64,000 nt of DNA from Acidimicrobiales bacterium (GCA_965115985.1 OZ220474.1:2974707-3038706); one strand, 5' to 3'; numbered from the stretch's first letter, positions 20,408 to 39,332 are shown. A program made the numbers and translations. Notes: generated from the letters alone by a model not told the origin.

Positions 20408-20410
20408 ACC

Positions 20411-20500: not shown

Positions 20501-21892
20501 TCAGCCGACCGCCGGGCCGATGGCGGGGGGTTGGGCTCGGAGGGCTTCGAGTTCGGCGGTGGCTTCGGGGGAGAGTTCGTTGATGCCGATGAACTCCTCC
20601 AGGTTGTAGTGGAGGTTGATGATTCGCATCTCCTCCCGGCTCAGAACGATGTGGTCCAGACCGGGCTGGTGCAGGCCCCGCTGGGCCCGCTGGAGGTTGG
20701 AAAGATCCTGGTCGAACACCAGGTTCAGCGAGGCGTCCTCGGGGGCGATGGTGGCTTGCACCGGTCGGTCCCGGGCGCTCCCCGGTGGGCGGCGGTCGAG
20801 GTGGAGGACGTCCATGAGGGCGTCGTCGGGGGTGGCACCGGGTCGAGCTCGCAGCACGGTGACGCTGTCGCACATAACGATCACGGTGATGTTGGGGAAC
20901 AGGTTGAACTGGAACAGGTCCAGCACCTGGGACTGGTCGAGACCGTCCAGGTCGAGGCCCTTCTCGGCGGTGTGGGTTCTTAACAAGGTCTCGAGCACGT
21001 CCCGCACGCTGCCCCCCTCGGGGATCGGGGGACACGGCCCCGGGTTGGCGGAGTCCTGGCCGTAGCGGGCCCCCTGGGTGGTGATGATGGAGTCCCAGAT
21101 CTGCTGATCGGTGGCCCCGTCGCGCAGGCGGGGACTGGGCACCCCGTAGGGCTGGTGCAGTGATCCGTGCCGGCCGTACAAGCGGTTCACCGAGTTGACG
21201 TCGTCGCAGCTCGGCAGCATCTCCCGGTGTATGCCCTGCACGTGGTAGGTCTCGCTGAACGCCTCGATGAGCGTCTTCCAGTTGCACGGCAGCGGCACGG
21301 TCAGGTCGTAGGTGCAGGCGTACTCGTCCAGGTGGGCCCATTCCAGCAGGTCGGGGACGGCCTCCAGATATTCGTCCAGCGGCTCGGTGTTCGGGTCGAG
21401 GTTCACGAACACCATCGGCCCCCAGGTGGCCACCTGCACCGGAAAAAGAGGGTAGTCGTCGTTGCGGAGCGCTCCGAAGCCCCGACGCGACGGTACTTCT
21501 CGCAGTCGGCCGTCCAACGTCCACGACCACCGGTGGTAGATGCACCGCAACTCGCTCAGCCCCGATCCCGACCCGGTACACAGCACGTTGCCCCGGTGGC
21601 GGCACACGTTCTGAAATCCCCGCAGGACGCCGTCCTCGTCCCGCACCACCAGCACCGACAGCTTGCCCACCGAGTATTCGAACCAGTCGCCCGGCGAGGG
21701 CACGTGGTCCACGGTGCAGGCCAACTGCCAGACCCGGGGCCACACGTGGGCCATCTCCAACTCGGCCCACTCCGGGGAGATGTACCGGTGGGTGGGCACC
21801 CGAACCGGCGTGCGCCGGGGCGGGACCGCGCCGATGGCGGTACCCACCGGGGCGTCATTGGTCAGCTCGGGTCCGATCTCGACCGTGGTCAT
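20501..21892 (-). CDS. Rieske [2Fe-2S] non-heme iron oxygenase, alpha subunit
   Basis: The exact Rieske motif C-x-H-x17-C-x2-H is present in CRHRGNVLCTGSGSGLSELRCIYHRW. It is followed by a catalytic domain (SETYHVQGIHRE). Confidence 0.9.
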   Translation of the reverse strand: MTTVEIGPELTNDAPVGTAIGAVPPRRTPVRVPTHRYISPEWAELEMAHVWPRVWQLACTVDHVPSPGDWFEYSVGKLSVLVVRDEDGVLRGFQNVCRHRGNVLCTGSGSGLSELRCIYHRWSWTLDGRLREVPSRRGFGALRNDDYPLFPVQVATWGPMVFVNLDPNTEPLDEYLEAVPDLLEWAHLDEYACTYDLTVPLPCNWKTLIEAFSETYHVQGIHREMLPSCDDVNSVNRLYGRHGSLHQPYGVPSPRLRDGATDQQIWDSIITTQGARYGQDSANPGPCPPIPEGGSVRDVLETLLRTHTAEKGLDLDGLDQSQVLDLFQFNLFPNITVIVMCDSVTVLRARPGATPDDALMDVLHLDRRPPGSARDRPVQATIAPEDASLNLVFDQDLSNLQRAQRGLHQPGLDHIVLSREEMRIINLHYNLEEFIGINELSPEATAELEALRAQPPAIGPAVG

Positions 21893-22052
21893 ACCCGGGC
21901 CTCCCCCGGGGCGACGGGCGGAGTCGGCGGGCGGCCCTCCCCCGGGGCCGCGATCAGAGCCGGCGGGGGCTGGGGGTGCGGGGCGGTTTTCATGGCTGAA
22001 CAGTAGTGGTAGCCACCGGCAGGGTGTCGGGGTTACCTAGGCTTGAGCGGGT

Positions 22053-23198
22053 ATGAGCTGGGTGGAGGGGATCGTGTTCACGGTGGGGGCGCTGATCTCC
22101 CTGGGCACGCTGCTGGCCGCGGTCCGAACGGTTGTGGTTCCCCGAGCCGAGCGGAGCCTGCTGATCCGTTTCGTCTACGTCGGCGTGGGGTTGCTGTTCT
22201 CGTTGCTGGCCCGGCACCGCAAGTCCTACGAGTCGCGGGACACGCTTCTGGCCCGCTACGCCTCGACCACGCTGATGATGCTGCCGTTCGTGTGGGCCAC
22301 CGGGATCGTCTACGGGTTCTCGCTCATGTTCTGGGCCAACGGTGTGCGCCCGTACCGGGAGTCCTTGATGTTGAGCGGGTCTTCGCTGGCCACGTTGGGT
22401 TTCCGGGAGAAGAACGACCTGGTGAGCCTGATGCTGGCCATAATCGAGGCGCTCATAGGCCTGGGCATCGTGGCGCTTTTGATCAGCTTTCTTCCCGCCA
22501 TGTACAGCGCGTTCAGTTCTCGGGAGGCCGCGGTCGCCCGACTCGAGGTCAGGGCCGGCACCCCCCCGACGCCGGAGGCCATGATCATTCTGGCTCACAA
22601 GCACGGGGCCCTGGAGTCCATGGGCGATACCTGGACCGAGTGGGAGCACTGGTTCATCCAGATCGAGGAGACCCATCAGATCTTCCCGGCGCTGTCCTTC
22701 TTCCGGTCGGTCCGCTCCGACCGATCGTGGGTCGTCGCCGCCGGTGCCGTCCTGGACACCGCGGCCATCATGTTGTCCACGGTGGCGGTACCTCACTCGC
22801 CGACGGTGCCGTTCATGATCCGGTCGGGTTATATGGCCCTGCGGCACATCGCCGACTTCCTCGGTATCGACTACGACCCCGATCCGCGGCCCACCGACCC
22901 GATCACCGTGCGCCGCCACGAGTTCCACAAAACCTACGAGACGTTGAAAAACGCCGGGGTGCCGGTGGTGGAGGATCGTGACCAGGCGTGGCGTGACTTC
23001 GCCGGTTGGCGGGTCAACTACGACGATTGTCTGGTAGGGCTGGCCTCGATCACCTCGGCCCCACCGGGCAAGTGGAGCAGCGACCGTCCGTCCCCCTACC
23101 ACCGACTGCCATTGCTCCACCGCCCCCGACACCGCCCCCGGACTCCCCTGTTGCGCCAACTCCTGCGCCGATCCGACGATTCGGCGAGGCGGCGGTGA
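22053..23198 (+). CDS. Membrane protein with possible 2-TM pore-loop (ion-channel-like) N-terminal half and cytosolic C-terminal domain
   Basis: The layout is TM - SGSSLATLGFRE - TM (LVSLMLAIIEALIGLGIVALLISFL), which resembles a K+-channel pore helix, filter and inner helix. The function is not established. The stop TGA 23196-23198 lies in the first unit of the downstream 37-bp array. Confidence 0.7.
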   Translation: MSWVEGIVFTVGALISLGTLLAAVRTVVVPRAERSLLIRFVYVGVGLLFSLLARHRKSYESRDTLLARYASTTLMMLPFVWATGIVYGFSLMFWANGVRPYRESLMLSGSSLATLGFREKNDLVSLMLAIIEALIGLGIVALLISFLPAMYSAFSSREAAVARLEVRAGTPPTPEAMIILAHKHGALESMGDTWTEWEHWFIQIEETHQIFPALSFFRSVRSDRSWVVAAGAVLDTAAIMLSTVAVPHSPTVPFMIRSGYMALRHIADFLGIDYDPDPRPTDPITVRRHEFHKTYETLKNAGVPVVEDRDQAWRDFAGWRVNYDDCLVGLASITSAPPGKWSSDRPSPYHRLPLLHRPRHRPRTPLLRQLLRRSDDSARRR

Positions 23199-23393
23199 TT
23201 TCGTGGGAGCGTGCGGTTCGGCGAGGCGGCGGTGATTTCGTGGGAGCGTGCGGTTCGGCGAGGCGGCGGTGATTTCGTGGGAGCGTGCGGTTCGGCGAGG
23301 CGGCGGTGATTTCGTGGGAGCGTGCGGTTCGGCGAGGCGGCGGTGATTTCGTGGGAGCGTGCGGTTCGGCGAGGCGGCGGTGATTTCTTCGGG
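23180..23393. repeat. 37-bp x5.6 tandem repeat starting at the stop codon of the preceding gene
   Basis: ttcggcgaggcggcggtgatttcgtgggagcgtgcgg starts at 23180, 23217, 23254, 23291, 23328 and 23365. The full copies are identical. Confidence 0.95.
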
Positions 23394-23416
23394 ATGTCGG
23401 CACCGATGAAGCTGGC

Positions 23417-24349
23417 GTGATGAAGACTCGGATTACCGAACTCCTGGGCATCGATATACCGGTCGTGCAGGCCCCGATGGGCTATATCGCCCGATCCCGG
23501 TTGGCCTCGGCGGTGTCCAACGCCGGAGGCATGGGCATCATCGAGACCTCCTCGGGCCGGCTCGACGACATCAAGGGGGAGATCGCCCGGATGCGCGACC
23601 TCACCGATCGCCCGTGGGGGGTGAACATTGCCCAGCTCCTGGTGCCCGACGCCACCGTCATCGATTTCGTGATCGAGCACGGTGTGAGGTTCGTGACCAC
23701 CTCGGCGGGCGACCCCGGCCGGTTCACCACCGTGCTGAAGGACGCGGGAATCACCGTCTTCCATGTGGTGCCCACGCTGCGAGGAGCCCGCAAGGCGGTG
23801 GACGCCGGGGTGGACGGCCTCGTCGTCGAGGGGGTGGAGGGGGGTGGGTTCAAGAACCCTCATGGCGCGTCCACCATGGTGCTCGCTCCGCTGGTGCGGG
23901 CCTCGGTGGAGGTGCCGATCATTGCGGCCGGGGGGATATGCGACGGGGTGTCCATGGCGGCCGCTCTGGCACTGGGTGCCGATGGCGTGCAGATGGGCAC
24001 CCGGATGCTCTCGGCCGCGGAGTCGCCGGTACACGACAACTGGAAGCAGGCGGTGGTGGAAGCCGCCGAGACCGACACCGTGGTGCTGAACCGGTTCGGT
24101 CGCCCCGGAATGCGGGCGCTGCGCACCTCGCTGACCTCCGAGATGGAGCACCAGGATCAGGTATCGATGCCCGGTCTGGACCGGCTCATGGATCAGTATT
24201 TCGGCGGACGGATGGACGTGGCCGTTCCCTTCGGGGGCCAGGTGATGGGGCGCATAGACGAGGTACGTCCGGTGGCCGACATCCTGGGGGAGGCCTGGGA
24301 GGAATGTCGCCGTCGCCTGTACCGACTGGGCCGGGCTGCTTCGGGATAA
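23417..24349 (+). CDS. Nitronate monooxygenase (NMO / 2-nitropropane dioxygenase family, FMN-dependent)
   Basis: ITELLGIDIPVVQAPMGYIA...LASAVSNAGGMGII...GVDGLVVEGVEGGG...IAAGGI.DG. The start is GTG 23417 or ATG 23420. Confidence 0.9.
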   Translation: MMKTRITELLGIDIPVVQAPMGYIARSRLASAVSNAGGMGIIETSSGRLDDIKGEIARMRDLTDRPWGVNIAQLLVPDATVIDFVIEHGVRFVTTSAGDPGRFTTVLKDAGITVFHVVPTLRGARKAVDAGVDGLVVEGVEGGGFKNPHGASTMVLAPLVRASVEVPIIAAGGICDGVSMAAALALGADGVQMGTRMLSAAESPVHDNWKQAVVEAAETDTVVLNRFGRPGMRALRTSLTSEMEHQDQVSMPGLDRLMDQYFGGRMDVAVPFGGQVMGRIDEVRPVADILGEAWEECRRRLYRLGRAASG

Positions 24350-27075: not shown

Positions 27076-28347
27076 GTGAGCGACGTCGCCCCTGCCTCCA
27101 CCACCGGGGTGTTCGCGTCGCTGTCCAATCGGAGCTACGCCATGTTGTGGTGGTCGGGGTTGGTGGCGTTCCTCGCGGTGGGCATGCAGATCCTGGCCCG
27201 GGGTTGGTTGGCCATTCAGCTCACCGACAGCAACTCCAGCTTTGCCCTGGTGCTGCTGGCTTTCGGCGTGGGCATGGTCACGGTAACCCCGTTCGGGGGG
27301 GTGGCCGCCGACCGGTTTCCCCGCCGGGCGCTGATACTGGGTTCCCACGTATCGCTGACCCTCAGTGCGGTCGGGATCGGGGTCATGGTGGTGCTGGGGC
27401 AAGAGCAGTTCTGGATGCTGCTGCTGGTGTCGTTCGTCCAGGGGGCGTCGTTCGCGTTCATGGGCCCGGCCCGGGTGGCCATGACCGGAGAGGTGGTGGA
27501 GCGCGAGCTTTTGTCCAACGCGATATCGCTCACCCAGCTCACCGTGGCCAGCACCCAGACGATCGGCCCCGCCCTGGCCGGAGTGCTGGCCGACACGCCC
27601 GGCTTCGGGCTGTCGGGGGTGTATCTGCTGAGCGCGGGCCTCACCGCGGTGGGGACGATCCCGGTCATGCTGCTGCCGGTGTCGCGTCCGAAGCAGCGAG
27701 AGGCTCGCAGCCCCTTCGAGGAGATCGCCGACGGGGTGTCCTATGTCCGACGGAAGCCCTATTTGCGAGTGGTGGTTGTCTCCACCGCGCTGATGATCAT
27801 CGCCGCCCTGCCCTATCTGGCGTTCCTCCCCAAATTCACCGAGAGCGTGTTCGGAGTGGGAGCGCTATGGCTGGGCATCCTCCAGGGGGCCAACGCTCTC
27901 GGGGGCACGGTCACCGCGCTTCAGGTGGCCCGGATGCGGGACAACACCAAGCTCTGGCGACTGCGGGTCACCAGTGGGATCGCGGTGGCCGGCGGCGTGG
28001 CCGTCCTGGCCGTCACCCCCAATCATCTGGTGGCGTTGGTGGTGTTGTTCGTGCTGGGGGGCGCGGCCACCACGTTCCAAACCGCCAACATGTCGATGTC
28101 GCTGCTGCTGTCCGAGCCGGTCTACCACGGCCGGGTGCAGAGCCTGCTGATGATCGCGTTCAGCGCCCAGAGCCTGATCGCGTTTCCGCTCGGCGTTCTG
28201 GCCGATCGGATCGGGTTGCGGGAGATGCACGGATACATGGCCGCGGCCACCGTCCTGGTGGTGCTGTGGTCGGTGGTTGCCGGCCGCACGGCCCGCCGTC
28301 AGACCCGGGCGGCAGCCAGGGACCGGACGACGGGGGCCGGTGGTTAG
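27076..28347 (+). CDS. MFS transporter (EntS/MFS_3-like)
   Basis: 423 aa with about 12 predicted TM segments. N-terminus: LSNRSYAMLWWSGLVAFLAVGMQILARGWL...GGVAADRFPRR. Confidence 0.85.
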   Translation: MSDVAPASTTGVFASLSNRSYAMLWWSGLVAFLAVGMQILARGWLAIQLTDSNSSFALVLLAFGVGMVTVTPFGGVAADRFPRRALILGSHVSLTLSAVGIGVMVVLGQEQFWMLLLVSFVQGASFAFMGPARVAMTGEVVERELLSNAISLTQLTVASTQTIGPALAGVLADTPGFGLSGVYLLSAGLTAVGTIPVMLLPVSRPKQREARSPFEEIADGVSYVRRKPYLRVVVVSTALMIIAALPYLAFLPKFTESVFGVGALWLGILQGANALGGTVTALQVARMRDNTKLWRLRVTSGIAVAGGVAVLAVTPNHLVALVVLFVLGGAATTFQTANMSMSLLLSEPVYHGRVQSLLMIAFSAQSLIAFPLGVLADRIGLREMHGYMAAATVLVVLWSVVAGRTARRQTRAAARDRTTGAGG

Positions 28348-28425
28348 GCTCGGGCGTTGACCGCCGTCAGACCCGAGCAGCCAGGGATCGGACGACGGTA
28401 TCGGGCTCTTAGGCTCGGGCGTTTA
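28293..28425. repeat. 65-68 bp x2 tandem duplication spanning the stops of two convergent genes
   Basis: ccgccgtcagacccg occurs at 28293 and 28361. ttaggctcgggcgtt occurs at 28344 and 28409. Copy 1 carries the MFS TAG (28345-28347) and copy 2 carries the TAA of the minus-strand methyltransferase (28409-28411). Confidence 0.9.
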
Positions 28426-29251
28426 CCAGCCAGGCGGCGGCGCCCATGACGATGCCGTCGGGAGTCCGACGGCGCTCGACCATGGTGCCGAGGGCGGCCT
28501 TGATCCGGTCGATCACGTGAACCTCGGCGTTCTCGGGGATGGTCGTGGCCGGCAGGAGGTCGATGTAGTAGCGAACCAACTCGTCGGTGGTGCCGTCGCC
28601 CACGGTCACCGGAAGGTCGTGGGGGGTGATGTCGATGTCCACCAGCCCGGCCTCGGTGAGGGTCGAGACGATGCGGTCGGCGGAGGCCAGCGAGAACGGC
28701 CCGGGAGCATCGGGATCCATCGGCTCGGGTGGCCCCAGCACCTCGGCCACCACCCGTCCCGGCTCGGTCACCCAGGAGTTCTCGTCGGGCGACCGCCAAC
28801 ATATGAAGCTCAGCCGCCCACCGGGTTGCAGTGCCCGCCTGAGGTTGGTGAATCCCGCCACCGGCTCGGCGAAGAACATGATTCCCATTCGTGAGAAGGC
28901 GGCGTCGTGGCACCGGGGCTCGAACTCGTGGACACTGGCGTCGGCCACCACGAACGACGTGTTGGCCATCCCGGCGGCCTCGGCCCGGCGACGAGCCTCG
29001 GCCACCATGGGTGCCGACACGTCCACCCCGGTCACATGGCCGCCCCCGCCCACCAGACGGGCCAGTTCCAGGCTGGTGGTGCCGGTACCGCAGCCGATGT
29101 CCAGCAGATCCTCGCCCGCACCGGGGTGCAACCGGGCGATGGCGGTCTCCCCCAGGGGGGCGAGCATGGAATCCAGCCTGTTCCGGTGCTCCACCCACAC
29201 CCGTCCCCGATTGTTCCAGTAGTTGCGCAGCGCCTCGGCCTGGTCGGGCAT
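28409..29251 (-). CDS. Class I SAM-dependent methyltransferase
   Basis: LLDIGCGTGTTSLELARLV (motif I) and Methyltransf_11-like spacing of later motifs. Confidence 0.85.
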   Translation of the reverse strand: MPDQAEALRNYWNNRGRVWVEHRNRLDSMLAPLGETAIARLHPGAGEDLLDIGCGTGTTSLELARLVGGGGHVTGVDVSAPMVAEARRRAEAAGMANTSFVVADASVHEFEPRCHDAAFSRMGIMFFAEPVAGFTNLRRALQPGGRLSFICWRSPDENSWVTEPGRVVAEVLGPPEPMDPDAPGPFSLASADRIVSTLTEAGLVDIDITPHDLPVTVGDGTTDELVRYYIDLLPATTIPENAEVHVIDRIKAALGTMVERRRTPDGIVMGAAAWLVNARA

Positions 29252-29279: not shown

Positions 29280-29412
29280 GGTGGGTACGTGTACCGATGC
29301 TCCAACACCGGGGCCGGTGGGTACATGTACTGGGTACTCCAGGACCGGGACAAGTGGGTGCGTGTACCGATACCCTGTAGCGGGATTGGTGGGTGCGTGT
29401 ACCGATACTCCT
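29280..29412. repeat. Four direct repeats (period 35-37 bp) with GTAC-rich palindromic cores in a divergent promoter region
   Basis: The copies are ggtgggtacgtgtaccgat (29280), ggtgggtacatgtactggg (29316; GTACATGTAC is a perfect palindrome), agtgggtgcgtgtaccgat (29353) and ggtgggtgcgtgtaccgat (29388). Confidence 0.9.
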
Positions 29413-29425
29413 GCGAACCCGAGGG

Positions 29426-30334
29426 ATGGTCGGGCTACAGTCGCTCCCAGTGAAACCTGCTTCTTTTGAATACCACGCTCCCGAGACGGTGGCCGATGCC
29501 GTCTCCCTGCTGGCCGAGCACGGTGACGAAGCCAAGCCTCTGGCCGGCGGCCAGAGCCTGGTGCCCATGCTGGCCATGCGCCTCACCCGCTTCGAGCATC
29601 TGGTGGACCTGAACCGGGTGGACGAGCTGTTCGGGGTTGCATCGGTGGACGGCGGCGTGCGCATCGCGGCCATGACCCGCCAGGCCGACGTCGGAACCGA
29701 TCCCGTGGTGGCCGAGCGGGTGCCGCTGCTGCGTCTGGCCACCCCCCACATCGGTCATTTCCAGATTCGCAACCGGGGCACCATCGGCGGCTCGCTGGCC
29801 CACGCCGACCCGGTGTCGGAGTATCCCGCAGTGATGCTGGCGCTGGACGGCACCGCGGAGATCGCATCGGCGTCGGGCACCCGGGAGGTGCCGGCGGTCG
29901 AGTTCTTCGAGTCCACGTTCGCCACCGCGGTGGCCGCCGACGAGCTGCTGGTGGCCGTCCGGTTCCCGGCCTGGGACCAGCCGGCCGGGTTCGCGTTCGA
30001 CGAGATCGCCCGCCGCAGCGGCGACTTCGCGTTGGCCGGTGCCGCGGTGGCCATGGGTCTGGACAGCACCGGCCGCATCGACCGGGCCGCGGTGGGCATG
30101 CTGGGGGTTGGTCCCACCCCGCTGAGAGCCCCGACGGTGGAGGCGGCGTTGATCGGCCTGACCGTGGCCGATGCCGACCCCGCCGAGATCGGGTCCCTGG
30201 CAGCCGACGACATGGAACCGGTGGGTGATGTGCATGCCGGGGCCGACTACCGCCGCCGGGCCGGGTCCACCCTGGTGGGCCGGATCCTGGCCGACGCTCT
30301 CGCCCAGCTATCCCAGGAGGCAAACGGTGGCTGA
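29426..30334 (+). CDS. Molybdenum hydroxylase FAD-binding (medium, CoxM/XdhB-like) subunit
   Basis: KPASFEYHAPETVADAVSLLAEHGDEAKPLAGGQSLVPMLAMRL...IRNRGTIGGSLAHADP. The start is ATG 29426 or GTG 29450. Confidence 0.88.
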   Translation: MVGLQSLPVKPASFEYHAPETVADAVSLLAEHGDEAKPLAGGQSLVPMLAMRLTRFEHLVDLNRVDELFGVASVDGGVRIAAMTRQADVGTDPVVAERVPLLRLATPHIGHFQIRNRGTIGGSLAHADPVSEYPAVMLALDGTAEIASASGTREVPAVEFFESTFATAVAADELLVAVRFPAWDQPAGFAFDEIARRSGDFALAGAAVAMGLDSTGRIDRAAVGMLGVGPTPLRAPTVEAALIGLTVADADPAEIGSLAADDMEPVGDVHAGADYRRRAGSTLVGRILADALAQLSQEANGG

Positions 30335-30818
30335 TCCCGTCCCCCTTTCCATGACCGTCAACGGTCGAACCCGGCGAGGGTCGGCCGAGCCCCGGTTGAC
30401 ACTGGCCGACTTCCTGCGGGAACAGGCCCTGTGTACCGGGGTCCACCTGGGCTGCGAGCACGGGGTGTGCGGCTCTTGTACCGTGCTGGTGGACGGCCGG
30501 GCGGTGCGCTCCTGTCTGCTGTTCGCGGTGCAGGCCGACGGGGCCGACGTCACCACCGTGGAAGGGCTCGCTCCCGACGAGGAGACGCTCCATCCGGTGC
30601 AGGAGGCGTTTCGTGACTGCCACGGCCTCCAGTGCGGGTTCTGCACCCCGGGTTTCGTGATGTCGGTGACCGCCTTCCTCCGGGCCAATCCCGACCCCTC
30701 CGACGAGGAGATCCGCCACGGCATCGCCGGCAACCTCTGCCGCTGCACCGGTTACCAGGGCATCGTGGCCGCCACCCGCCAGGCGGCCGCGACCATGAGG
30801 GGAGACAGCCATGAGTAG
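30327..30818 (+). CDS. Molybdenum hydroxylase [2Fe-2S] (small, CoxS-like) subunit
   Basis: The GTG at 30327 follows a CAGGAGG Shine-Dalgarno and overlaps the upstream stop. Cluster motifs are CEHGVCGSCTV and GLQCGFCTPG...CRCTGY. Confidence 0.92.
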   Translation: MADPVPLSMTVNGRTRRGSAEPRLTLADFLREQALCTGVHLGCEHGVCGSCTVLVDGRAVRSCLLFAVQADGADVTTVEGLAPDEETLHPVQEAFRDCHGLQCGFCTPGFVMSVTAFLRANPDPSDEEIRHGIAGNLCRCTGYQGIVAATRQAAATMRGDSHE

Positions 30819-30911
30819 GGGAGACAGCCATGAGGCCAGGCGGCCGCGACCATGAGGGGAGACAGCCATGAGGCCAGGCGGCCGCGACCATGAGGGGAGA
30901 CAGCCATGAGT
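30779..30911 (+). repeat. Complex 19/38/57-bp tandem repeat of the small-subunit stop / large-subunit start junction (ATGAGTAG)
   Basis: ccaggcggccgcgaccatgaggggagacagccatgag occurs at 30779, 30836 and 30874. gggagacagccATGAGTAG occurs at the first copy (stop used at 30816-30818) and at the last copy (ATG used at 30906). Confidence 0.92.
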
Positions 30912-33224
30912 AGGACGGCCGCGGCCCGCTATGTGGGGCAGTCGGTCAAGCGCATCGAGGATCCCCGGCTGGTCACCGGGCACGGCCGGTACGTGGACGA
31001 CGTCGTTCTGCCCGGCATGGTCCACGCCGCCTTCGGGCGCAGCGACCTGGCCCGGGCGACCATCACCCGCCTCGACACCTCTGCGGCCGAGGCCCTGGAG
31101 GGGGTCCGCGCCGTCTTCGTCGGCACCGACCTGAACCCCCACAACGACTCGCTGCGGGCGTCGCTGCATCCACCGGAGTCGCCCGCCCCACCGGCCAACA
31201 TGCTGGCCGACGGCGATGTCCGTTTCGTGGGCGACCCCTACGTGATGGTGCTGGCCGAGAGTCGCTACATCGCCGAGGACGCCCTCGATCTGGTCGAGGT
31301 CGAGTTCGAGCCGTTGGCCCCGGTGGTGGATTACGAGGTCGCCGCCGACGCCGACGATCACGTTCACCCCGAACTGGGCGGCAACCTGGCCCATGATTTG
31401 GTCGTGCCCAACCCGGCCCTGGAGGAGGCCTTTGCCTTGGCCGCTCATGTCGTGACCGAGACCTGGCACCAGCACCGCCAGACCAACGTGCCCATGGAGA
31501 CCCGGGGGATCGTGGCGTCCTGGCAGCCCCATGGCGGGGTGATGGAGGTATGGGCGTCCACCCAGAGTCCCCACGAGATCCAGCACACCGGGGCCCGGGT
31601 GCTGGGCATCGGCGAGCACAAGATGGTGGTCCACTTCGGCGATGTGGGGGGCGGGTTCGGCCAGAAGATGTTCCTGGGGCGCGAGGACATGGCGGTGCTG
31701 GTGGCCGCCCGGCTCCTGGGCAGCCCGGTGAAGTGGATCGAGGATCGCAGGGAGAACCTGCTGGCCTCCAACCATGCTCGCATCGAGCAGGTCACCGTCA
31801 AGATGGCGGTGGGGGAGGATGGTGGTTTCCTGGCCGCCGATCTGGACCAGCTCGAGGACGACGGGGCCTACCCCCTGGGCGGGCCGGCCACGCCGGGGGC
31901 CATGACCGCGATGCAATTCCCCGGGCCCTACCGGATGGGGCCGGTGAGCTGGCGGGCCCGCACGGTGTACACCAACACCTGCGGCCGGGGGGCCTACCGG
32001 GGGCCGTGGCAGATGGAGAGCGTGGCCCGGGAGCAGATGATCGACCGGGTGGCTCGGGAGATCGGCATGGATCCGCTGGAGCTGCGCCGTCGCAACGTGC
32101 TGACCCCCGACGACCTGCCCTACCAGGGGCCCACCGGCCTGGCCTACGAGACCACCATCTCCCCCGATCAAACCCTGGAACAGGCGGCCGAGATGATCGG
32201 CTACGAGCGGTTCCGGGTCGAGCAGGCCCAGGCCCGGGAGCAGGGCCGCTACCTGGGGTTGGGCATCGCTCTGTACATCGAGCCCACATCCATGGGAATG
32301 GGGCCGTTGGGTACGGAATCGGCCATGCTCCGGGTGGAGGTGGACGGCCATGTCAACGTGTTCATGGGCACCGGCTCGCACGGCCAGAGCCTGGAGACCA
32401 CCATGGCCCAACTGGTGGCCGACGAGCTCGGGGTGCGCCCCGAGGACGTCACCCTCCATCAGGGTCACGGCTCGGGCTACGGGTTCGGTACCGGGGGCAG
32501 TCGCTCGGCGGTGATTGCCGGCAGCGCGGCCCGGGCCGCGGCCGCAGGGGTGAAGGAGAAGGTGGTCGCCATTGCCGCCCACCTGATGGAAGCCTCCGCC
32601 GACGACTTGGAGGTGGCCGACGGGGTGATCTCGGTCCGGGGCACACCGGCGGCCTCGACGACGCTGGCCCGGGTGGCGGCCACCGCTTATCAGAACTCCG
32701 ACGCCCTTCCCCCCGGCATGGAGGCCGGACTGGAGCACACCGCCCGTTACAAGGCCCCGCCGACCACCCACTCCAACGCCTGCCACATATGCACCTGCGA
32801 GGTGGATCCGGGAACCGGCAAGGTCACCCTCCTTCGTTACGTGGTCAGTGAGGACTGCGGGGTATTGATCAACCCCATGGTGGTGGACGGCCAGATCGCC
32901 GGAGGAGTGGCCCAGGGCATCGGCGGTGTGCTCTACGAGCATGCGGTGTACGACGAGAGCGGCAATCCACTGGCCTCCACCTTCCTCGACTACCTGGTGC
33001 CCACCGCGGCCGAGGTGCCCGAACTGGAGTGCGGCCACGTGGTGGTGCCCTCCGACACCCCCGGTGGGCACAAGGGGACCGGGGAGGGCGGTGCCATCGG
33101 GGCCCCTCCGGCGGTGTTCAACGCGGTGGCCGACGCTCTGGCCCCCTTCGGGGTGCATCCCAACCGTCAACCGCTCGACCCCGATGCCGTACTCGATCTG
33201 ATCGCTTCGTCCACCAACTCCTAG
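30906..33224 (+). CDS. Molybdopterin-binding large subunit, xanthine dehydrogenase / aldehyde oxidase family
   Basis: 772 aa: VGQSVKRIEDPRLVTGHGRYVDD, GGGFGQK, and a C-terminal GTGEGGAIGAPPAV motif. The active-site loop reads GAYRGPW, which is not the form-I CODH signature. Confidence 0.92.
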   Translation: MSRTAAARYVGQSVKRIEDPRLVTGHGRYVDDVVLPGMVHAAFGRSDLARATITRLDTSAAEALEGVRAVFVGTDLNPHNDSLRASLHPPESPAPPANMLADGDVRFVGDPYVMVLAESRYIAEDALDLVEVEFEPLAPVVDYEVAADADDHVHPELGGNLAHDLVVPNPALEEAFALAAHVVTETWHQHRQTNVPMETRGIVASWQPHGGVMEVWASTQSPHEIQHTGARVLGIGEHKMVVHFGDVGGGFGQKMFLGREDMAVLVAARLLGSPVKWIEDRRENLLASNHARIEQVTVKMAVGEDGGFLAADLDQLEDDGAYPLGGPATPGAMTAMQFPGPYRMGPVSWRARTVYTNTCGRGAYRGPWQMESVAREQMIDRVAREIGMDPLELRRRNVLTPDDLPYQGPTGLAYETTISPDQTLEQAAEMIGYERFRVEQAQAREQGRYLGLGIALYIEPTSMGMGPLGTESAMLRVEVDGHVNVFMGTGSHGQSLETTMAQLVADELGVRPEDVTLHQGHGSGYGFGTGGSRSAVIAGSAARAAAAGVKEKVVAIAAHLMEASADDLEVADGVISVRGTPAASTTLARVAATAYQNSDALPPGMEAGLEHTARYKAPPTTHSNACHICTCEVDPGTGKVTLLRYVVSEDCGVLINPMVVDGQIAGGVAQGIGGVLYEHAVYDESGNPLASTFLDYLVPTAAEVPELECGHVVVPSDTPGGHKGTGEGGAIGAPPAVFNAVADALAPFGVHPNRQPLDPDAVLDLIASSTNS

Positions 33225-34305: not shown

Positions 34306-34378
34306 TCCGGGGTAGCTCAACCGGCAGAGCAAGCGGCTGTTAACCGCTAGGTTGTGAGTTCGAGTCTCACCCCCGGAG
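34306..34378 (+). tRNA. tRNA-Asn (anticodon GTT)
   Basis: I folded a full cloverleaf by hand. Acceptor TCCGGGG/CCCCGGA, D-stem GCTC/GAGC, anticodon arm AGCGG-CTGTTAA-CCGCT, T-arm GTGAG-TTCGAGT-CTCAC, discriminator G. No encoded CCA. Confidence 0.93.
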
Positions 34379-34422
34379 CCCACATCCAAAACGGTGCCCA
34401 TCCCCGGAACGCAACGACCGGG

Positions 34423-34592
34423 CTGTTGGCCGATTGGATCGGCCGACGGGATAGGCCGTTGGGATATCGGGTGGTTGACCGATTGGGTAGGCCGTTGGGA
34501 TATCGGACGGCTGGCCGATTGGGTAGGCCGTTGGGATATCGGACGGCTGGCCGATTGGGTAGGCCGTTGGGATATCGGACGGCATGCCAACA
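34423..34592. repeat. 36-bp x~4.5 tandem repeat filling the spacer between two tRNA genes
   Basis: taggccgttgggatatcggacggctggccgattggg starts at 34452, 34488, 34524 and 34560, with a partial copy from 34423. Confidence 0.93.
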
Positions 34593-34606
34593 GGGCCGGC
34601 CAATAA

Positions 34607-34682
34607 GATGTGGCCGGGCCCGTAGCTCAGTGGTCAGAGCAGGCGACTCATAATCGCTCGGTCGCGGGTTCGATCCCCGCCG
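34607..34682 (+). tRNA. tRNA with CAT anticodon, probably tRNA-Ile2 (lysidine) rather than elongator Met; CCA encoded
   Basis: Cloverleaf GGGCCCG/CGGGCCC, anticodon arm GGCGA-CTCATAA-TCGCT, T-arm GCGGG-TTCGATC-CCCGC. G1-C72 excludes an initiator. C4-G69/C5-G68 and an anticodon arm nearly identical to my recollection of E. coli ileX favour Ile2. Confidence 0.9.
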
Positions 34683-34904
34683 GGCCCACCACGCACCACC
34701 AGGGTGCCCATGCACCGCTGGGGGGGATGGCCGGAGATAATCCGGCGGGTTCTGCTATTAGTGACGGGCACCATAAGGGTGCCCATGCACCGCTGGGGGG
34801 AGGGGGGGATGGTGCCAGGGGGCTGTTCGGTTGAGGACCGGTCCGGTGTCCCGGCTACGGTGACGACGGGGGCGCACCCTCGGGGTTGCACCTTCGGGGT
34901 TGTT

Positions 34905-36026: not shown

Positions 36027-36463
36027 GCCAGACCCCCCCATCCAACCGAACCGACGGCCAGGAAGCACCCGACTCCCGTCTGATCGTCGTCGTGCCCCAT
36101 GAGCCCGGGCAGCTCGCCCACGTCGCCGGCCTGTTGGCCGAGGAGAACATCGACGTCGAGGCCATGGACGGGCACCTCGTCGGAGAGCTCGGTGTCCTCA
36201 TGCTCAGCACCAGCGACGACGACACCGCACTCCATGTCCTGCTCAAGGCCAACCTTCGGGCCGTGACCTCCGACGCTCTCGTCTTCCACATGCTCGACCG
36301 TCCCGGTGCCCTGGCCGGCGTTGTGCAGTTGTTCGAGCAGAACGGCCTCAACGTCCGTACCATCCATATCATCCACCGCCATGCCGGCTCTGCCGTGGTC
36401 GCCGTCTCCACCGACAACGACGACCTCGCGCTCACCCTGCTCGACCGCGATTCCCTCCTCTAG
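36023..36463 (+). CDS. Tandem ACT-domain protein, translationally coupled to hdc
   Basis: The ATG at 36023 overlaps the hdc TGA (ATGA). Two ACT-like units are present (LIVVVPHEPGQLAHVAGLLAEENIDVEAM and LVFHMLDRPGALAGVVQLFEQNGLNVRTI). Confidence 0.75.
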   Translation: MSQTPPSNRTDGQEAPDSRLIVVVPHEPGQLAHVAGLLAEENIDVEAMDGHLVGELGVLMLSTSDDDTALHVLLKANLRAVTSDALVFHMLDRPGALAGVVQLFEQNGLNVRTIHIIHRHAGSAVVAVSTDNDDLALTLLDRDSLL

Positions 36464-36590
36464 TGGTTCCTGCCGGTAGCCGCAGCCAAAGCTGCTCGAC
36501 CGCGATTCCCTCCTCTAGTGGTTCCTGCCGGTAGCCGCAGCCAAAGCTGCTCGACCGCGGCTCTCTGCTCTGTCTGTTCCTCCCAGCAAC
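36437..36590. repeat. 55-bp x2 (+ degenerate third) tandem repeat copying the ACT-gene stop region
   Basis: ctgctcgaccgcgattccctcctctagtggttcctgccggtagccgcagccaaag occurs at 36437 and 36492, with a diverged copy from 36547. The first copy contains the TAG at 36461-36463. Confidence 0.92.
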
Positions 36591-37453: not shown

Positions 37454-37636
37454 TTCTACCGGGGGTTTGTCGGTCCGTCGTTGCGGGTTGACCGGGCCGG
37501 GATCGTGGAACGGGTTCTACCGGGGGTTTGTCGGTCCGTCGTTGCGGGTTGACCGGGCCGGGATCGTGGAACGGGTTCTACCGGGGGGTTGCCGGTCTGT
37601 CGTCGCGGGTTGACCGGGCCGGGATCGTGGATCGGG
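37454..37636. repeat. 61-bp x3 tandem repeat between two co-directional genes (5' region of the PAP2 gene)
   Basis: ttctaccgggggtttgtcggtccgtcgttgcgggttgaccgggccgggatcgtggaacggg starts at 37454, 37515 and 37576. Confidence 0.93.
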
Positions 37637-37640
37637 TGGG

Positions 37641-38210
37641 TTAGGCCAGGCCCTCCCCGAGCCAGGCCGGAGCCCGGTCCAGGAGGAACTCGCTGATTTC
37701 CGCCACCTTGGGCAAGGCTCCGCCCAGGCATTCCTCGCCGGTGAACATGCCGCTGATCGAAACCTCCACCCGGGCCGAGATGGTGATGCTCCGCTGGGGA
37801 GCGTCGGTAACCGCGGCATAGGCGTCCATGGCCGATACGTCCAGGGGCAGGTCCATGCCCCCGATGCCCGCCAGTTCGGTGGCCAGCAGCAGAAGATCGG
37901 GGCCGTCGGTCAACGGGGGAAGGCTCCACGACACCACCATCGGCAGCTTGAAGTCCTCGGTGGGGTCCGCTCCTTCGGGCAGTTCCATCACGTGGTCCTC
38001 GAAGCTCAGCATCACCCGGGGATCGACCTCCAGCGCGATGTGTACGTCCAGAGGTCCGCCGCAGGCGTTGGCGGGGTGCAGATCCACCTCCCAGGCCTGG
38101 CGCATGGAGTAGGTCTCGACGAAGTGGCGGTCGTCGTGGATGTGGAAGCCGAGGTCGGCGGCATGATCCTTGAGGTCGGCGATGAAGGTTGAGATATCGA
38201 CGATGGCCAA
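37641..38210 (-). CDS. Hypothetical protein (no family recognised)
   Basis: 189-aa ORF with protein-like, non-repetitive, acidic composition, flanked by clean intergenic arrays. It has no recognisable motifs. Confidence 0.6.
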   Translation of the reverse strand: MAIVDISTFIADLKDHAADLGFHIHDDRHFVETYSMRQAWEVDLHPANACGGPLDVHIALEVDPRVMLSFEDHVMELPEGADPTEDFKLPMVVSWSLPPLTDGPDLLLLATELAGIGGMDLPLDVSAMDAYAAVTDAPQRSITISARVEVSISGMFTGEECLGGALPKVAEISEFLLDRAPAWLGEGLA

Positions 38211-38243
38211 GAGCCCTACACTGCCACGCCGGAGCCGGTCATT

Positions 38244-38378
38244 GCTATCCGCGGGGTGTGGCTATCCGTGAGTTCTGGCTATGGGCGGGTTCTGGTTATC
38301 CGCGGGTCTCGTGGCTATCGGCGGGTTCTTGCTATCGGCGGGTTCTGGCTCGCGGTTAGGGCTATCCGGTGGAGGTCG
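38244..38378. repeat. 17-bp x~8 direct-repeat array in a divergent promoter region
   Basis: Units starting gctat/gttat occur at 38244, 38261, 38278, 38295, 38314, 38331, 38348 and 38361. The consensus is roughly GCTATCSGCGGGTTCTG. Confidence 0.88.
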
Positions 38379-38417
38379 GCAGCGGGTAGTTTCGCCTCGG
38401 TGGATGGTGACCAGATC

Positions 38418-39332
38418 ATGGCGGTTCTCGACCGGGCGGCCGGGGCGGTGGCCGCGGCGGTCGCCCGGACCAAGGGTGGGGAAACGACCGGGATGCGGGA
38501 GGGCCAGTACGACTTCGACGTGGCCGCCGACGAGGCGGCCCTGGCGGTACTGACCGGGGCCGGCTTCGGGGTGTACAGCGAGGAGTCGGGGTGGCACGAC
38601 GCCGACCGGGAGATGGTGGTGGTGCTCGATCCGGTGGATGGCTCCACCAACGCGGCGCGCGGTCTCCCCTGGGTCTCCACCAGCCTGTGCGTGGTGGACT
38701 CGGAGGGAATGCTGGCCGCGCTGGTGCAGAACCTGGTGAACGGCCGGGCCTACCGGGCGATCAGGGGCCGGGGTTCCACCGTGGACGGCCGACCGCTGGT
38801 GTCTTCGGCCGGACCGGGTAATCCCTGGGGCTCGGGCCCGTCCGCCCAGGTGTCTTCGGCCGGACCGGGTAATCCCTGGGGCTCGGGCCCGTCGGCCCAG
38901 GTGTCTTCGGCCGGACCGGGTAATCCCTGGGGCTCGGGCCCGTCGGCCCAGGTGTCTTCGGCCGGACCGGGTAATCCCTGGGGCTCGGGCCCGTCGGCCC
39001 AGGAGTCGTTGGCCGCGGCCACCGTGGGGTTGACCGGCCTGCCACCCCGGAACCTGGGGTGGGGGCAGTACCGATCCATGGGATCCATCGCCCTGGATCT
39101 GTGCGCCGTGGCCGAGGGAGTGCTGGACGCCTACATCGACTGCACCCCCGAAGGTCATGCCACATGGGACTATCTGGGCGGCATCCTGGTGTGTGACGAG
39201 GCCGGGGTGGCGGTGGACGAGGCCCGGGGGTGCTCCCTGCTGCCCGACGACCTGGCGGAGCGCCGCCTCCCCGTGGCGGCCGCCACCGACCCACTGCTCT
39301 TCGAGGTTCTGGTTCAGCGCCGCAAGTTCTAA
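38418..39332 (+). CDS. Inositol monophosphatase family protein (SuhB/ImpA/CysQ-like)
   Basis: Metal-binding motifs are EESG, VVLDPVDGSTNAARG and WDYLGGILVCDEAG. The ATG at 38418 lies inside ORF 38256-39332. Confidence 0.85.
   Translation: MAVLDRAAGAVAAAVARTKGGETTGMREGQYDFDVAADEAALAVLTGAGFGVYSEESGWHDADREMVVVLDPVDGSTNAARGLPWVSTSLCVVDSEGMLAALVQNLVNGRAYRAIRGRGSTVDGRPLVSSAGPGNPWGSGPSAQVSSAGPGNPWGSGPSAQVSSAGPGNPWGSGPSAQVSSAGPGNPWGSGPSAQESLAAATVGLTGLPPRNLGWGQYRSMGSIALDLCAVAEGVLDAYIDCTPEGHATWDYLGGILVCDEAGVAVDEARGCSLLPDDLAERRLPVAAATDPLLFEVLVQRRKF
38799..39002 (+). repeat. 51-bp x4 in-frame tandem repeat inside the IMPase gene, encoding (VSSAGPGNPWGSGPSAQ)x4
   Basis: gtgtcttcggccggaccgggtaatccctggggctcgggcccgtcSgcccag starts at 38799, 38850, 38901 and 38952. 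Confidence 0.95.

What the first reader, a model, noticed from the sequence alone, without database searches (positions are those of the whole stretch)
30779..30911. Small/large subunit junction (ATGAGTAG overlap) of a molybdenum hydroxylase is pulled apart by nested 19/38-bp repeats
Seen: gggagacagccATGAGTAG occurs at the first copy, where GAG-TAG ends the 2Fe-2S subunit at 30818. It occurs again at the last copy, where ATG-AGT-AGG starts the large subunit at 30906. The copies in between read ccatgagGCC, and the larger unit ccaggcggccgcgaccatgaggggagacagccatgag recurs at 30779, 30836 and 30874. Inference: the ancestral genes overlapped by ATGAGTAG, and amplification inserted 88 nt of repeat between stop and start. 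The 19- and 38-bp periods are not multiples of 3. The internal copies carry extra ATGs (ccATGagg) that could act as decoy starts and lower large-subunit translation relative to the small subunit.
Basis: partly seen in the sequence, partly recalled or inferred. Interest (0 to 1): 0.65.

Follow-up and report, generated by a model that had tools for sequence, protein, structure and literature searches.

The report
Tandem duplications split coupled gene junction
A very recent local tandem duplication (19- and 38-base units, 95 extra bases) has pushed apart the once-overlapping stop and start codons of two subunit genes of a molybdenum enzyme in a sponge-symbiont bacterium. It is one of about two dozen such mini-repeat arrays in this 64-kb stretch, so the wider story is a genome that is unusually prone to short duplications.

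Summary
Window 30778-30913 reads A-B-TAG-B-A-B-A-B-TAG (A = 22 nt, B = 16 nt), with all copies identical. Removing 95 nt (19+38+38) restores an 8-nt ATGAGTAG stop/start overlap that lines up base for base with unexpanded orthologues.

The window comes from a sponge-associated Acidimicrobiia ("Ca. Poriferisocius" clade). In 12 of 35 related genomes the same S/L junction carries an independent expansion. The M/S junction of the same operon never does.

In every expanded junction the spacer is tiled by mini-ORFs. Each starts on the previous stop and ends on the next start. So a termination-reinitiation relay from S to L is kept on paper.

The array is not special to this operon. About 23 unrelated, locally derived minisatellites (periods 17-68 nt, clustered at 35-38) sit at gene junctions, in intergenic spacers and in-frame in protein loops across the window. 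The nearest relatives have about ten-fold fewer.

My best reading is a lineage-specific burst of short tandem duplications filtered by selection for intact reading frames. The closest analogues are mycobacterial VNTR/MIRU loci, but this is not a dispersed element. Copy-number polymorphism and the mutational cause remain untested.

The parts
29426..30334 (+). FAD-binding medium subunit (M) of an XDH/CODH-family molybdenum hydroxylase. The 5' end is uncertain; the stop is TGA 30332-30334.
   Evidence: Pfam FAD_binding_5 and CO_deh_flav_C. ORF listed. Relatives-279 aa.
30327..30818 (+). 2Fe-2S small subunit (S). Its GTG start sits in GTGGCTGA, overlapping the M stop by 8 nt. It ends ...ATMRGDSHE-TAG inside the first repeat copy.
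   Evidence: Pfam Fer2_2/Fer2. Sequence. The M/S junction [A/G/T]TGGCTGA is conserved in 32 relatives.
30778..30799 (+). Unit A, copy 1 (GCCAGGCGGCCGCGACCATGAG). This is the original copy and codes for the S tail residues QAAATMR.
30800..30818 (+). Unit B, copy 1, plus TAG. It holds an SD-like GGGGAGA, ATG 30811 and the S stop TAG 30816-30818 (ATGAGTAG).
30819..30834 (+). Unit B, copy 2 (the product of the 19-nt period), with an SD and ATG 30830.
30835..30872 (+). A copy 2 plus B copy 3, one 38-nt unit. ATGs at 30852 and 30868.
30873..30913 (+). A copy 3 plus B copy 4 plus TAG. It holds ATG 30890, then the SD and ATG 30906 that start L, and TAG 30911-30913. It is identical to 30778-30818.
30811..30855 (+). 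Relay mini-ORF 1 (MSRGDSHEARRPRP). Its start overlaps the S stop by 8 nt. Its stop TGA 30853-30855 overlaps ATG 30852.
30852..30893 (+). Relay mini-ORF 2 (MRGDSHEARRPRP). Its stop TGA 30891-30893 overlaps ATG 30890.
30890..30913 (+). Relay mini-ORF 3 (MRGDSHE). Its stop TAG 30911-30913 overlaps the L start ATG 30906 by 8 nt, as in the ancestral junction.
30830..30909 (+). Second chain of two 13-codon mini-ORFs (MRPGGRDHEGRQP; 30830-30871 and 30868-30909). Each is preceded by the SD and the two are linked by ATGA. The last stop, TGA 30907-30909, overlaps the L start ATG 30906.
30906..33224 (+). Molybdopterin-binding large subunit (L), 772 aa. Its N-terminus MSRTAAARYVGQSVKRIED matches orthologues.

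Best explanation
The feature is a young, locally generated minisatellite. It formed when the segment holding the overlapping stop of S and start of L (ATGAGTAG), together with the S tail and the L ribosome-binding site, was tandemly duplicated at least three times (one 19-nt unit and two 38-nt units).

Such duplications are tolerated for three reasons. S still ends at the first copy. L still starts at the last copy. The copies in between are tiled by mini-ORFs whose stops overlap the next start, so ribosomes leaving S can in principle be handed on to L by successive termination-reinitiation steps.

This array is one product of a lineage-specific, genome-wide tendency to make short tandem duplications, with preferred unit lengths of about 35-38 nt and 48-68 nt. 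Selection removes those that break reading frames. The survivors sit at gene junctions, in spacers, and as in-frame inserts in protein loops.

Shown:
- the repeat anatomy;
- its local origin;
- the ancestral overlap;
- recurrence at this junction in relatives;
- the genome-wide abundance of arrays;
- the in-frame rule inside genes;
- the unbroken ORF tiling.

Inferred:
- that the relay is actually used;
- that selection for coupling shaped which duplications survive;
- the mutational cause.
For: - Anatomy: searches give exact copy structure.
- Local origin and ancestral overlap: collapsing 95 nt gives a junction colinear with orthologues. 23 of 35 clade genomes have overlaps of 1, 4 or 8 nt.
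- Recurrence: 12 of 35 clade genomes have an expanded S/L junction, from at least 6-7 independent events. Examples are a perfect 68-nt x2 in L001, 70-nt x2.4 in L057, 31/38-nt copies in L021, and a 15-nt tandem inside an 83-nt insert in L020. L002-type and L025-type inserts are old, diverged copies of the S tail (TALGVSAAR versus TGYQGIVAATR).
- The M/S junction is unexpanded in 32 of 32 genomes.
- Unexpanded S/L junctions are flanked by a 9-11-nt direct repeat (AGCCGCCGC...) 41-44 nt apart. M/S junctions have only 6-8-nt repeats that do not straddle the junction.
- Relay: in all expanded junctions every mini-ORF stop overlaps the next start. Simulated random junction-spanning duplications give a relay in 67% of cases for the window's ATGAGTAG and in only 34-45% for the other junction types. 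My own rough product over the independent events is about 0.004.
- Direct coupling would be lost at 87 nt. Reinitiation is almost abolished by gaps of about 20 nt (PMC10666635).
- Genome-wide process: about 23 arrays in 64 kb. Their units are unrelated to each other and absent outside their own arrays.
- Other junctions in the window are pulled apart in the same way. These include 47343-47421 (38 nt x2.1, ATGA relay), 49435-49656 (68 nt x3.3, two 23-codon relay ORFs) and 23180-23387 (37 nt x5.6). The fmt/rsmB junction at 13249-13402 is expanded in frame.
- Arrays inside confirmed genes have periods that are multiples of 3: 36, 36, 36, 48 and 51.
- Lineage specificity: the nearest relatives (92-93% aa identity) have about 1 array of period >=30 nt in 22 kb, against 11 in the matched 22 kb of the window. 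The IMPase-family protein has 4 copies of a 17-aa unit where relatives have 1. The tRNA-Asn/tRNA-Met spacer is 235 nt against 44-63 nt in relatives.
Against: - No translation data exist. L has its own SD, so it may start independently of any relay.
- For this particular junction, a relay is the default outcome of two-thirds of random duplications. The window array alone therefore says little about selection.
- The cross-species statistic is modest, and the events are not fully independent.
- The founding 38-nt junction (GAG|GCC) shows no microhomology, and the L001 junction has a 2-nt filler. Simple replication slippage does not explain how the arrays were founded.
- The order of the 19-nt and 38-nt events could not be reconstructed with fewer than 3-4 steps.
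- Only 64 kb of the genome was seen, so 'genome-wide' is an extrapolation.
- No sequence of the same species was found, so instability of copy number is unproven.
Confidence: 0.62

Rival explanations
1. The array is a neutral passenger. It is an ordinary slippage or duplication product with no effect on expression. It persists only because S and L stay intact and L initiates from its own Shine-Dalgarno sequence. The mini-ORF tiling is a by-product of duplicating an ATGAGTAG motif.
For: For the window's junction, 67% of random duplications give a relay by construction. Each B copy carries GGGGAGA 6 nt upstream of its ATG. All copies are identical, so the array is too young for selection to have acted much.
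Against: In relatives, where a relay is expected in only 34-45% of random events, every one of the independent expansions is relay-compatible, or extends S in frame back to an ATGA overlap. Old, diverged inserts (the L002 and L025 types) have kept both overlapping ends across several species.
Confidence: 0.25
2. The array is a decoy or attenuator. The extra ATGs and SD copies capture ribosomes and lower L translation relative to S.
For: Six extra ATGs, three of them with an SD, lie upstream of the true start. Each reinitiation step is probably less than fully efficient, so a three-step relay could reduce L output (inference).
Against: No decoy ORF reads through or past the L start. All end exactly on a downstream start codon. 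S and L are subunits of one complex with fixed stoichiometry (established knowledge of the XDH/CODH family), so lowering L has no obvious benefit. The same kind of array occurs at unrelated junctions and at a tRNA spacer.
Confidence: 0.07
3. The array is an assembly or sequencing artefact, and the perfect copies are not in the real genome.
For: All copies are 100% identical, and no second assembly of this species could be found to confirm them.
Against: - Many other arrays in the window have diverged copies (76-98% identity), which artefacts do not produce.
- Arrays obey reading-frame rules inside genes.
- Independent assemblies of other species, short-read and long-read, show expansions at the same junction.
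Confidence: 0.04
4. The array is an inserted mobile or dispersed repeat (MIRU- or MITE-like), or a phase-variable contingency switch.
For: The position inside an operon and the coupled mini-ORFs resemble MIRUs (PMC12548453, PMC3184786). Units that are not multiples of 3 are typical of switches.
Against: - The units are copies of the adjacent S tail and L start and occur nowhere else in the window.
- There are no terminal inverted repeats beyond a NotI-like palindrome.
- Any number of 19- or 38-nt copies leaves S, L and the relay intact, because ATGAGTAG closes both alternative frames. Copy number therefore cannot toggle expression on and off.
Confidence: 0.02

Closest known systems
Mycobacterial interspersed repetitive units (MIRU-VNTR; Supply et al. 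1997, as described in PMC12548453, PMC3184786 and PMC2734929)
   Same: Both are short (tens of bp) tandem units inside operons, between co-directional genes. In both, the units carry small ORFs whose ends overlap the stop and start codons of the flanking genes. This is thought to keep translational coupling. Both occur in a high-GC Actinomycetota genome.
   Different: MIRUs are one dispersed sequence family (about 40-50 loci) that appears to insert at start codons. Here each array is a copy of its own local sequence. Units at different loci are unrelated. The units are shorter (19/38 nt). The density is far higher: about 1 array per 3 kb here, against 41 MIRU locations in the M. tuberculosis H37Rv chromosome (PMC2734929).
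Locus-specific bacterial VNTRs or minisatellites (for example M. tuberculosis ETR/QUB loci such as ETR-F/VNTR3239 in the rnc-fpg spacer; PMC2734929)
   Same: Both are locally derived intergenic tandem repeats. Some are composed of two unit lengths. They are presumed to grow and shrink by slippage once founded.
   Different: Copy-number polymorphism, the defining property of a VNTR, could not be tested here. The density of arrays, the clustering of periods at 35-38 nt, and the recurrent hits on one junction across species have no parallel that I found in the papers searched.
Translational coupling by termination-reinitiation at 1- and 4-nt overlaps of genes for heteromeric complexes (PMC6728339, PMC10666635)
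   Same: The ancestral S/L and M/S junctions are textbook overlapping pairs that encode subunits of one complex. The relay mini-ORFs reproduce the same 4- and 8-nt overlaps at each step.
   Different: The two genes are now 87 nt apart, a distance at which direct coupling is reported to fail. Coupling, if kept, needs two or three intermediate mini-ORFs. That arrangement has not been tested experimentally for natural duplications.
Duplication-mutator signatures of flap-processing defects (yeast rad27/FEN1, bacterial Pol I 5'-nuclease mutants). Recalled from memory, not checked in the library.
   Same: These also give many de novo tandem duplications of tens of bp, often flanked by short direct repeats. 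Several window arrays end in partial copies of 3-14 nt.
   Different: No repair-gene defect could be examined in a 64-kb window. Some founding junctions have no microhomology, or have filler bases.

Membership tests
MIRU (mycobacterial interspersed repetitive unit) | Tandem units of about 40-100 bp in intergenic regions within operons | tested here: inconclusive
   The position matches, between S and L of one operon. The units are 19 and 38 nt, below the stated range (PMC2734929).
MIRU (mycobacterial interspersed repetitive unit) | Small ORFs in the unit whose ends overlap the stop and start codons of the flanking genes | tested here: met
   Mini-ORFs at 30811-30855, 30852-30893 and 30890-30913, and at 30830-30871 and 30868-30909. 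All stops overlap the next ATG.
MIRU (mycobacterial interspersed repetitive unit) | One sequence family dispersed at many loci of the genome | tested here: not met
   Units A and B occur only in this array. The 23 array units in the window share no more sequence than shuffled controls, and none matches outside its own array.
MIRU (mycobacterial interspersed repetitive unit) | Insertion of foreign sequence at the site (filled versus empty sites, flanking direct repeats) | tested here: not met
   The 'insert' is a copy of the adjacent S tail and L start. The collapsed sequence is colinear with orthologues.
VNTR / bacterial minisatellite | Head-to-tail copies of a 10-100-bp unit derived from local sequence | tested here: met
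   TRF finds periods of 19 and 38 at 100% identity. Local origin is shown.
VNTR / bacterial minisatellite | Copy number varies among strains of one species | not testable with these tools
   No same-species sequence was found. Exact-protein look-ups were empty. The best relatives are 93% identical in L. Two pairs of contigs that encode an identical L, from other species (L156/L157, L158/L159), have unexpanded junctions.
Termination-reinitiation coupled gene pair | Co-directional genes whose stop and start overlap by 1 or 4 nt, or lie within a few nt | tested here: not met
   The S stop is at 30818 and the L start at 30906, a gap of 87 nt. The ancestral state and 23 of 35 orthologues do meet this feature. 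The relay of mini-ORFs meets it step by step, at sequence level only.
XDH/CODH-family molybdenum hydroxylase (M, S, L subunits) | FAD_binding_5 + CO_deh_flav_C; Fer2 + Fer2_2; Ald_Xan_dh_C + MoCoBD_1/2 domains in adjacent genes | tested here: met
   All domains score above the Pfam cut-offs.
Aerobic CO dehydrogenase (CoxL) or any named NCBIfam equivalog | Score above the curated family cut-off | tested here: not met
   The best hits are CODH_aero_grp5 at 572 bits (cut-off 950) and glyceraldDH_alpha at 557 bits (cut-off 790). The substrate is unknown.
Phase-variable contingency locus | A change in repeat copy number switches a gene on or off (frame or promoter spacing) | tested here: not met
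   ATGAGTAG closes both alternative frames. Units of 19 nt (1 mod 3) and 38 nt (2 mod 3) both leave S, L and the relay intact. No promoter-like site lies in the array.

The most novel reading that the evidence does not exclude
This lineage of sponge-symbiotic Acidimicrobiia carries an unrecognised, size-biased duplication process. It founds tandem duplications of preferred lengths, about 35-38 nt and about 50-68 nt, all over the genome.

One speculative cause is failed processing of long replication flaps, or fill-in of staggered nicks. On that idea the unit lengths reflect a protein footprint, such as the roughly 35-nt and 65-nt binding modes of SSB.

Selection for unbroken translational coupling then decides which duplications survive at overlapping gene junctions. 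That would make this genome a natural experiment on termination-reinitiation relays and on how overlapping genes become separated.
Probability: 0.15. Interest if true: 0.8.

Novelty: new variant of a known kind. Interest (0 to 1): 0.5.

Why it matters
Three things would follow if the picture holds.

- Evolution of gene overlaps. Tandem duplication across a stop/start overlap separates the genes without damaging either. It also automatically creates linker mini-ORFs that can keep the genes translationally coupled. MIRUs reach the same solution by insertion.
- A test of coupling. Recurrent, independent expansions at one junction in many related genomes, all relay-compatible, give comparative evidence on whether coupling between enzyme subunits is under selection. 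The expansions also supply ready-made constructs with 0, 1, 2 or 3 relay steps for testing how far reinitiation can be chained.
- A possible mutational syndrome. The window has about one array per 3 kb, ten-fold more than its nearest relatives. The arrays include 12-17-residue repeats inserted in frame into housekeeping enzymes. This points to a lineage-specific mutational syndrome in an uncultured symbiont. A full-genome census and the gene content for DNA replication and repair could explain it.

For annotation, such arrays will mislead gene callers about start codons and inflate apparent intergenic space.

Tried and rejected
- Same-strain copies for copy-number variation. Exact look-ups of L and of two versions of S found nothing. 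The metagenome scan gave only three relatives at 87-88% identity, all with the L005-type insert. A protein search plus cluster listing found nothing closer than 93%.
- Structured RNA. The fold of 30760-30940 is not better than shuffles (z = -0.84). Rfam finds only three tRNAs in the window.
- Internal promoter or terminator. None was found in 30300-31300.
- Dispersed element. Rejected by all-against-all comparison of units and by BLAST of the units against the window.
- Simple slippage between flanking direct repeats as the founding event. The window's ancestral junction has an 8-nt CGGCCGCG repeat 37 nt apart, read by eye. The observed 38-nt unit boundaries (GAG|GCC) do not use it and have no microhomology. 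I could not derive A-B-TAG-B-A-B-A-B-TAG from A-B-TAG in fewer than 3-4 steps, so the order of events is left open.
- The relay as proof of selection. Simulation shows it is the default outcome for this junction (67%), so I lowered the claim.
- My first automatic call of L starts (first start codon after a stop) over-extended L in many relatives. I read the junction classes from the sequences themselves.
- A GC3-based gene map was only approximate. I confirmed the genes next to arrays with Pfam.

Full report
**1. What is in the sequence**

Window 30778-30913 reads A B TAG B A B A B TAG, where A = GCCAGGCGGCCGCGACCATGAG (22 nt) and B = GGGAGACAGCCATGAG (16 nt). B occurs four times and A three times. 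All copies are exact and none occurs elsewhere in the window. Shuffles expect 0.02 and 0.00 matches. TRF reports periods of 19 (B+TAG) and 38 (A+B), both at 100% identity. The repeat finder gives the same register.

There is an FAD-binding subunit (to 30334) and a 2Fe-2S subunit that ends at TAG 30816-30818. The 772-aa molybdopterin-binding subunit starts at ATG 30906. Pfam domains confirm all three. None reaches an NCBIfam equivalog cut-off, so this is an XDH/CODH-family hydroxylase of unknown substrate. The stop-to-start gap is 87 nt. The net insertion is 95 nt (19+38+38).

**2. Where it comes from and what the ancestor looked like**

A scan of species-representative genomes with L returned about 35 loci at 79-93% identity. 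All are from sponge-associated Acidimicrobiia MAGs labelled Candidatus Poriferisocius / Sva0996. In 23 of these 35 junctions S and L overlap by 4 nt (ATGA), 1 nt (TAATG or TAGTG) or 8 nt (GTGAGTAA in L008). With the 95 nt removed, the window junction aligns colinearly with them.

**3. The same junction is hit again and again**

Twelve of the 35 clade junctions are expanded, by different events:
- L001, the closest genome-scan relative, has a perfect 68-nt duplication with a 2-nt filler at the joint.
- L057 has 2.4 copies of a 70-nt unit.
- L021 has three diverged copies (31/38 nt) that lengthen S by 23 residues and bring it back to an ATGA overlap.
- L020 has an 83-nt insert that contains a 15-nt tandem.
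- L002, L005, L010, L023 and L027, plus three metagenome contigs, share a 56-nt insert.
- L025 and L030 share a 70-nt insert.

The two shared inserts are old copies of the S tail. Their peptide ...TALGVSAAR..KGEH matches the S tail ...TGYQGIVAATR...KGE..

The M/S junction of the same operon ([A/G/T]TGGCTGA, an 8-nt overlap) is unchanged in all 32 genomes where I could read it. Unexpanded S/L junctions are straddled by a 9-11-nt direct repeat of alanine codons (AGCCGCCGC...) 41-44 nt apart. M/S junctions have nothing comparable. That may make S/L mutationally hotter, but the observed unit boundaries do not use that repeat. The cause of the hot spot is therefore an inference.

**4. Relay rather than decoy**

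In the window, ATG 30811 overlaps the S stop. It opens a 14-codon ORF that ends at TGA 30853-30855, on ATG 30852. The next ORF ends at TGA 30891-30893, on ATG 30890. The one after that ends at TAG 30911-30913, on the L start.

A second chain starts at the SD-preceded ATG 30830, 11 nt after the S stop. It runs 30830-30871, then 30868-30909, and its last stop overlaps ATG 30906. The same unbroken tiling holds in every expanded relative.

Published reporter work shows that termination-reinitiation is almost abolished by gaps of about 20 nt, and that short upstream ORF ends suffice for it (PMC10666635). So an 87-nt gap would uncouple S and L unless such a relay operates.

I tested how surprising the tiling is by simulating all junction-spanning duplications of 12-80 nt. 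A relay arises in 67% of cases for the window's ATGAGTAG, because TGA and TAG close both alternative frames. It arises in only 34-45% for the other junction types. The window array alone is therefore not evidence of selection. Across the roughly seven independent events, my own rough product of these probabilities is about 0.004. That is suggestive but modest, and the events are not fully independent.

No translation data exist. L also keeps its own SD in the last B copy. The RNA is not unusually structured (z = -0.84), it matches no Rfam family, and it has no promoter- or terminator-like site.

**5. The array is one of many**

TRF finds about 23 non-trivial arrays in the 64-kb window (periods 17-68 nt, 2-5.6 copies, many 94-100% identical), beside two coding His/Asp-rich repeat regions. 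Their units are unrelated to one another and absent outside their own arrays. They are local duplications, not a dispersed element.

Their positions follow a rule.

Arrays that start on a gene's stop codon or span a junction:
- 13249-13402, fmt/rsmB, 36 nt. It is in frame and gives RsmB four N-terminal 12-residue repeats.
- 15346-15487, between the MoCF-domain gene and ribD.
- 23180-23387, 37 nt x5.6.
- 28293-28427, between the convergent MFS and methyltransferase genes, which overlap by 4 nt in relatives.
- 37454-37637.
- 40838-40900.
- 46255-46367.
- 47343-47421, 38 nt x2.1, with a 13-codon ATGA relay ORF.

Other positions:
- 49435-49656 spans the RBS, the start and the first 18 codons of a GMC oxidoreductase. 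It creates two 23-codon relay ORFs.
- 34441-34583 lies between tRNA-Asn and tRNA-Met. The spacer is 235 nt here and 44-63 nt in relatives.

Arrays inside confirmed genes all have periods that are multiples of 3:
- 36 nt in the CoaBC linker;
- 36 and 48 nt inside RsmB;
- 51 nt x4.3 inside an IMPase-family protein, where relatives have a single copy of the 17-residue unit.

Eight of the 16 arrays with at least 90% identity have periods of 36-38 nt.

**6. It is specific to this lineage**

The nearest relatives found (92-93% identical in L, 22 kb each) have about one array of period >=30 nt. The matched 22 kb of the window has 11. Relatives in the genome scan average about 0.2 such arrays per 10 kb around the operon, against about 4 in the window.

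Diverged copies in many arrays, the reading-frame rule, and independent assemblies that show expansions at the same junction all argue against an artefact.

**7. Mechanism**

Shown:
- local tandem duplication of a segment containing the stop/start overlap;
- at least three events at this locus, followed or accompanied by copy gain within an already repeated tract;
- a genome enriched in such events;
- survivors restricted to frame-compatible positions.

Inferred:
- the duplications are tolerated because S ends in the first copy, L starts in the last, and the copies between form a reinitiation relay;
- the lineage has an elevated rate of founding short duplications.

The founding mechanism is open. 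The 38-nt joint has no microhomology and the L001 joint has filler bases. That fits end-joining or fill-in of staggered breaks as well as it fits slippage. Several other arrays end in 3-14-nt partial copies, as in flap-ligation duplications. The clustering of periods near 35-38 and 50-68 nt recalls SSB footprints. That is my speculation only.

**8. Comparison with what is known**

The closest analogue is the mycobacterial MIRU/VNTR. MIRUs also sit inside operons and carry ORFs coupled to the flanking genes (PMC12548453, PMC3184786, PMC2734929). This array fails the defining MIRU features of being a dispersed family and an insertion. It is better filed as a locus-specific minisatellite, although copy-number polymorphism is untested.

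My literature searches on the clade, on sponge symbionts with tandem repeats, and on tandem duplication at overlapping genes found no description of this pattern. The library is incomplete.

**9. Verdict**

The 'pulled apart' inference is right. The 'decoy' inference is not supported. The wider phenomenon, a duplication-prone genome filtered by reading-frame and probably coupling constraints, is more interesting than the single locus.

I rate it a new variant of a known kind, with moderate interest.

Noticed in passing
window 1804-1911, 11698-11809, 13249-13402, 14008-14196, 14538-14658, 15346-15487, 16545-16664, 20396-20462, 21896-21967, 23180-23387, 28293-28427, 29281-29411, 34441-34583, 36437-36559, 37454-37637, 38244-38350, 38798-39015, 40838-40900, 41688-41811, 46255-46367, 47343-47421, 49435-49656: About 22 further minisatellite arrays (periods 17-68 nt, 2-5.6 copies, several 100% identical). 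Their units are unrelated to each other. Nearly all lie at gene ends, in spacers or in protein loops. The density is about ten-fold higher than in the nearest relatives.
   Followed up: partly
window, all arrays with at least 90% identity: Unit lengths are not spread evenly. Eight of 16 young arrays have periods of 36-38 nt, and most of the rest have 48-68 nt. None has 25-34 nt. Relatives also show 36-, 38-, 68- and 70-nt units. The cause is unknown.
   Followed up: no
window 13020-14756 (+), rsmB-like ORF: One methyltransferase gene carries three in-frame arrays. The first is 12-residue repeats (RAVNPAGGERNA x4) at the N-terminus, made by duplicating the fmt stop / rsmB GTGA start junction. 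The second is SPAEAGRSATAK x5, just after the SAM-binding loop. The third is a 16-residue x2.5 repeat near the C-terminus.
   Followed up: partly
window 38798-39015, inside ORF 38193-39332 (+): An IMPase-family protein has four copies of a 17-residue unit (VSSAGPGNPWGSGPSAQ). Orthologues in L156 and L158 have one copy. This is an in-frame insert of three extra 51-nt units in the middle of the domain.
   Followed up: yes
window 34306-34691: The spacer between tRNA-Asn and tRNA-Met is 235 nt and holds a 36-nt x4 array. In L001, L020 and L050 the spacer is 44-63 nt and the tRNAs are 99-100% identical.
   Followed up: yes
window 28293-28427: A 65-nt duplication (81% identity) separates the stops of the convergent MFS transporter and methyltransferase genes by 61 nt. 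In relatives L156 and L157 these two genes overlap by 4 nt.
   Followed up: partly
window 47343-47421 (- strand) and 49435-49656 (+): Two more start-codon duplications with ATGA-linked relay mini-ORFs. One is a 13-codon ORF between a luciferase-like monooxygenase gene and a 152-aa gene. The other is two identical 23-codon ORFs in front of a GMC oxidoreductase, whose first 18 codons are part of the 68-nt unit.
   Followed up: yes
window 23180-23420: In a 37-nt x5.6 perfect array, GTGA-linked 25-codon ORFs step two units at a time. They run from the upstream gene's stop to the GTG/ATG start of a nitronate monooxygenase gene (23417/23420).
   Followed up: partly
L002, L005, L010, L023, L027 at about 3945-4004; L025 and L030 at 3925-4002; L076-L078: A conserved 19-25-codon mini-ORF (MIHLTALGVSAARPKGEHL and variants) lies between S and L in several species. 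It has overlapping stop/start codons at both ends. It looks like an old, diverged copy of the S tail that has been kept.
   Followed up: partly
window 5659-10971 (-): A very large ORF (about 1770 aa) contains 11 fibronectin type III domains. This kind of eukaryote-like repeat protein is often reported in sponge symbionts (my recollection, not checked).
   Followed up: no
window 44105-45118 (-) and 62371-63543 (-): Two ORFs have long, degenerate Asp/Glu/His-rich coding repeats (periods of 18/42/63 nt and 12/18/48 nt). They are of a different kind from the junction minisatellites.
   Followed up: no
window 21889-21993 (-): A 34-codon proline-rich ORF contains a 36-nt x2 repeat. It ends in an ATGA overlap with the start of the 463-aa gene at 20501-21892.
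   Followed up: no
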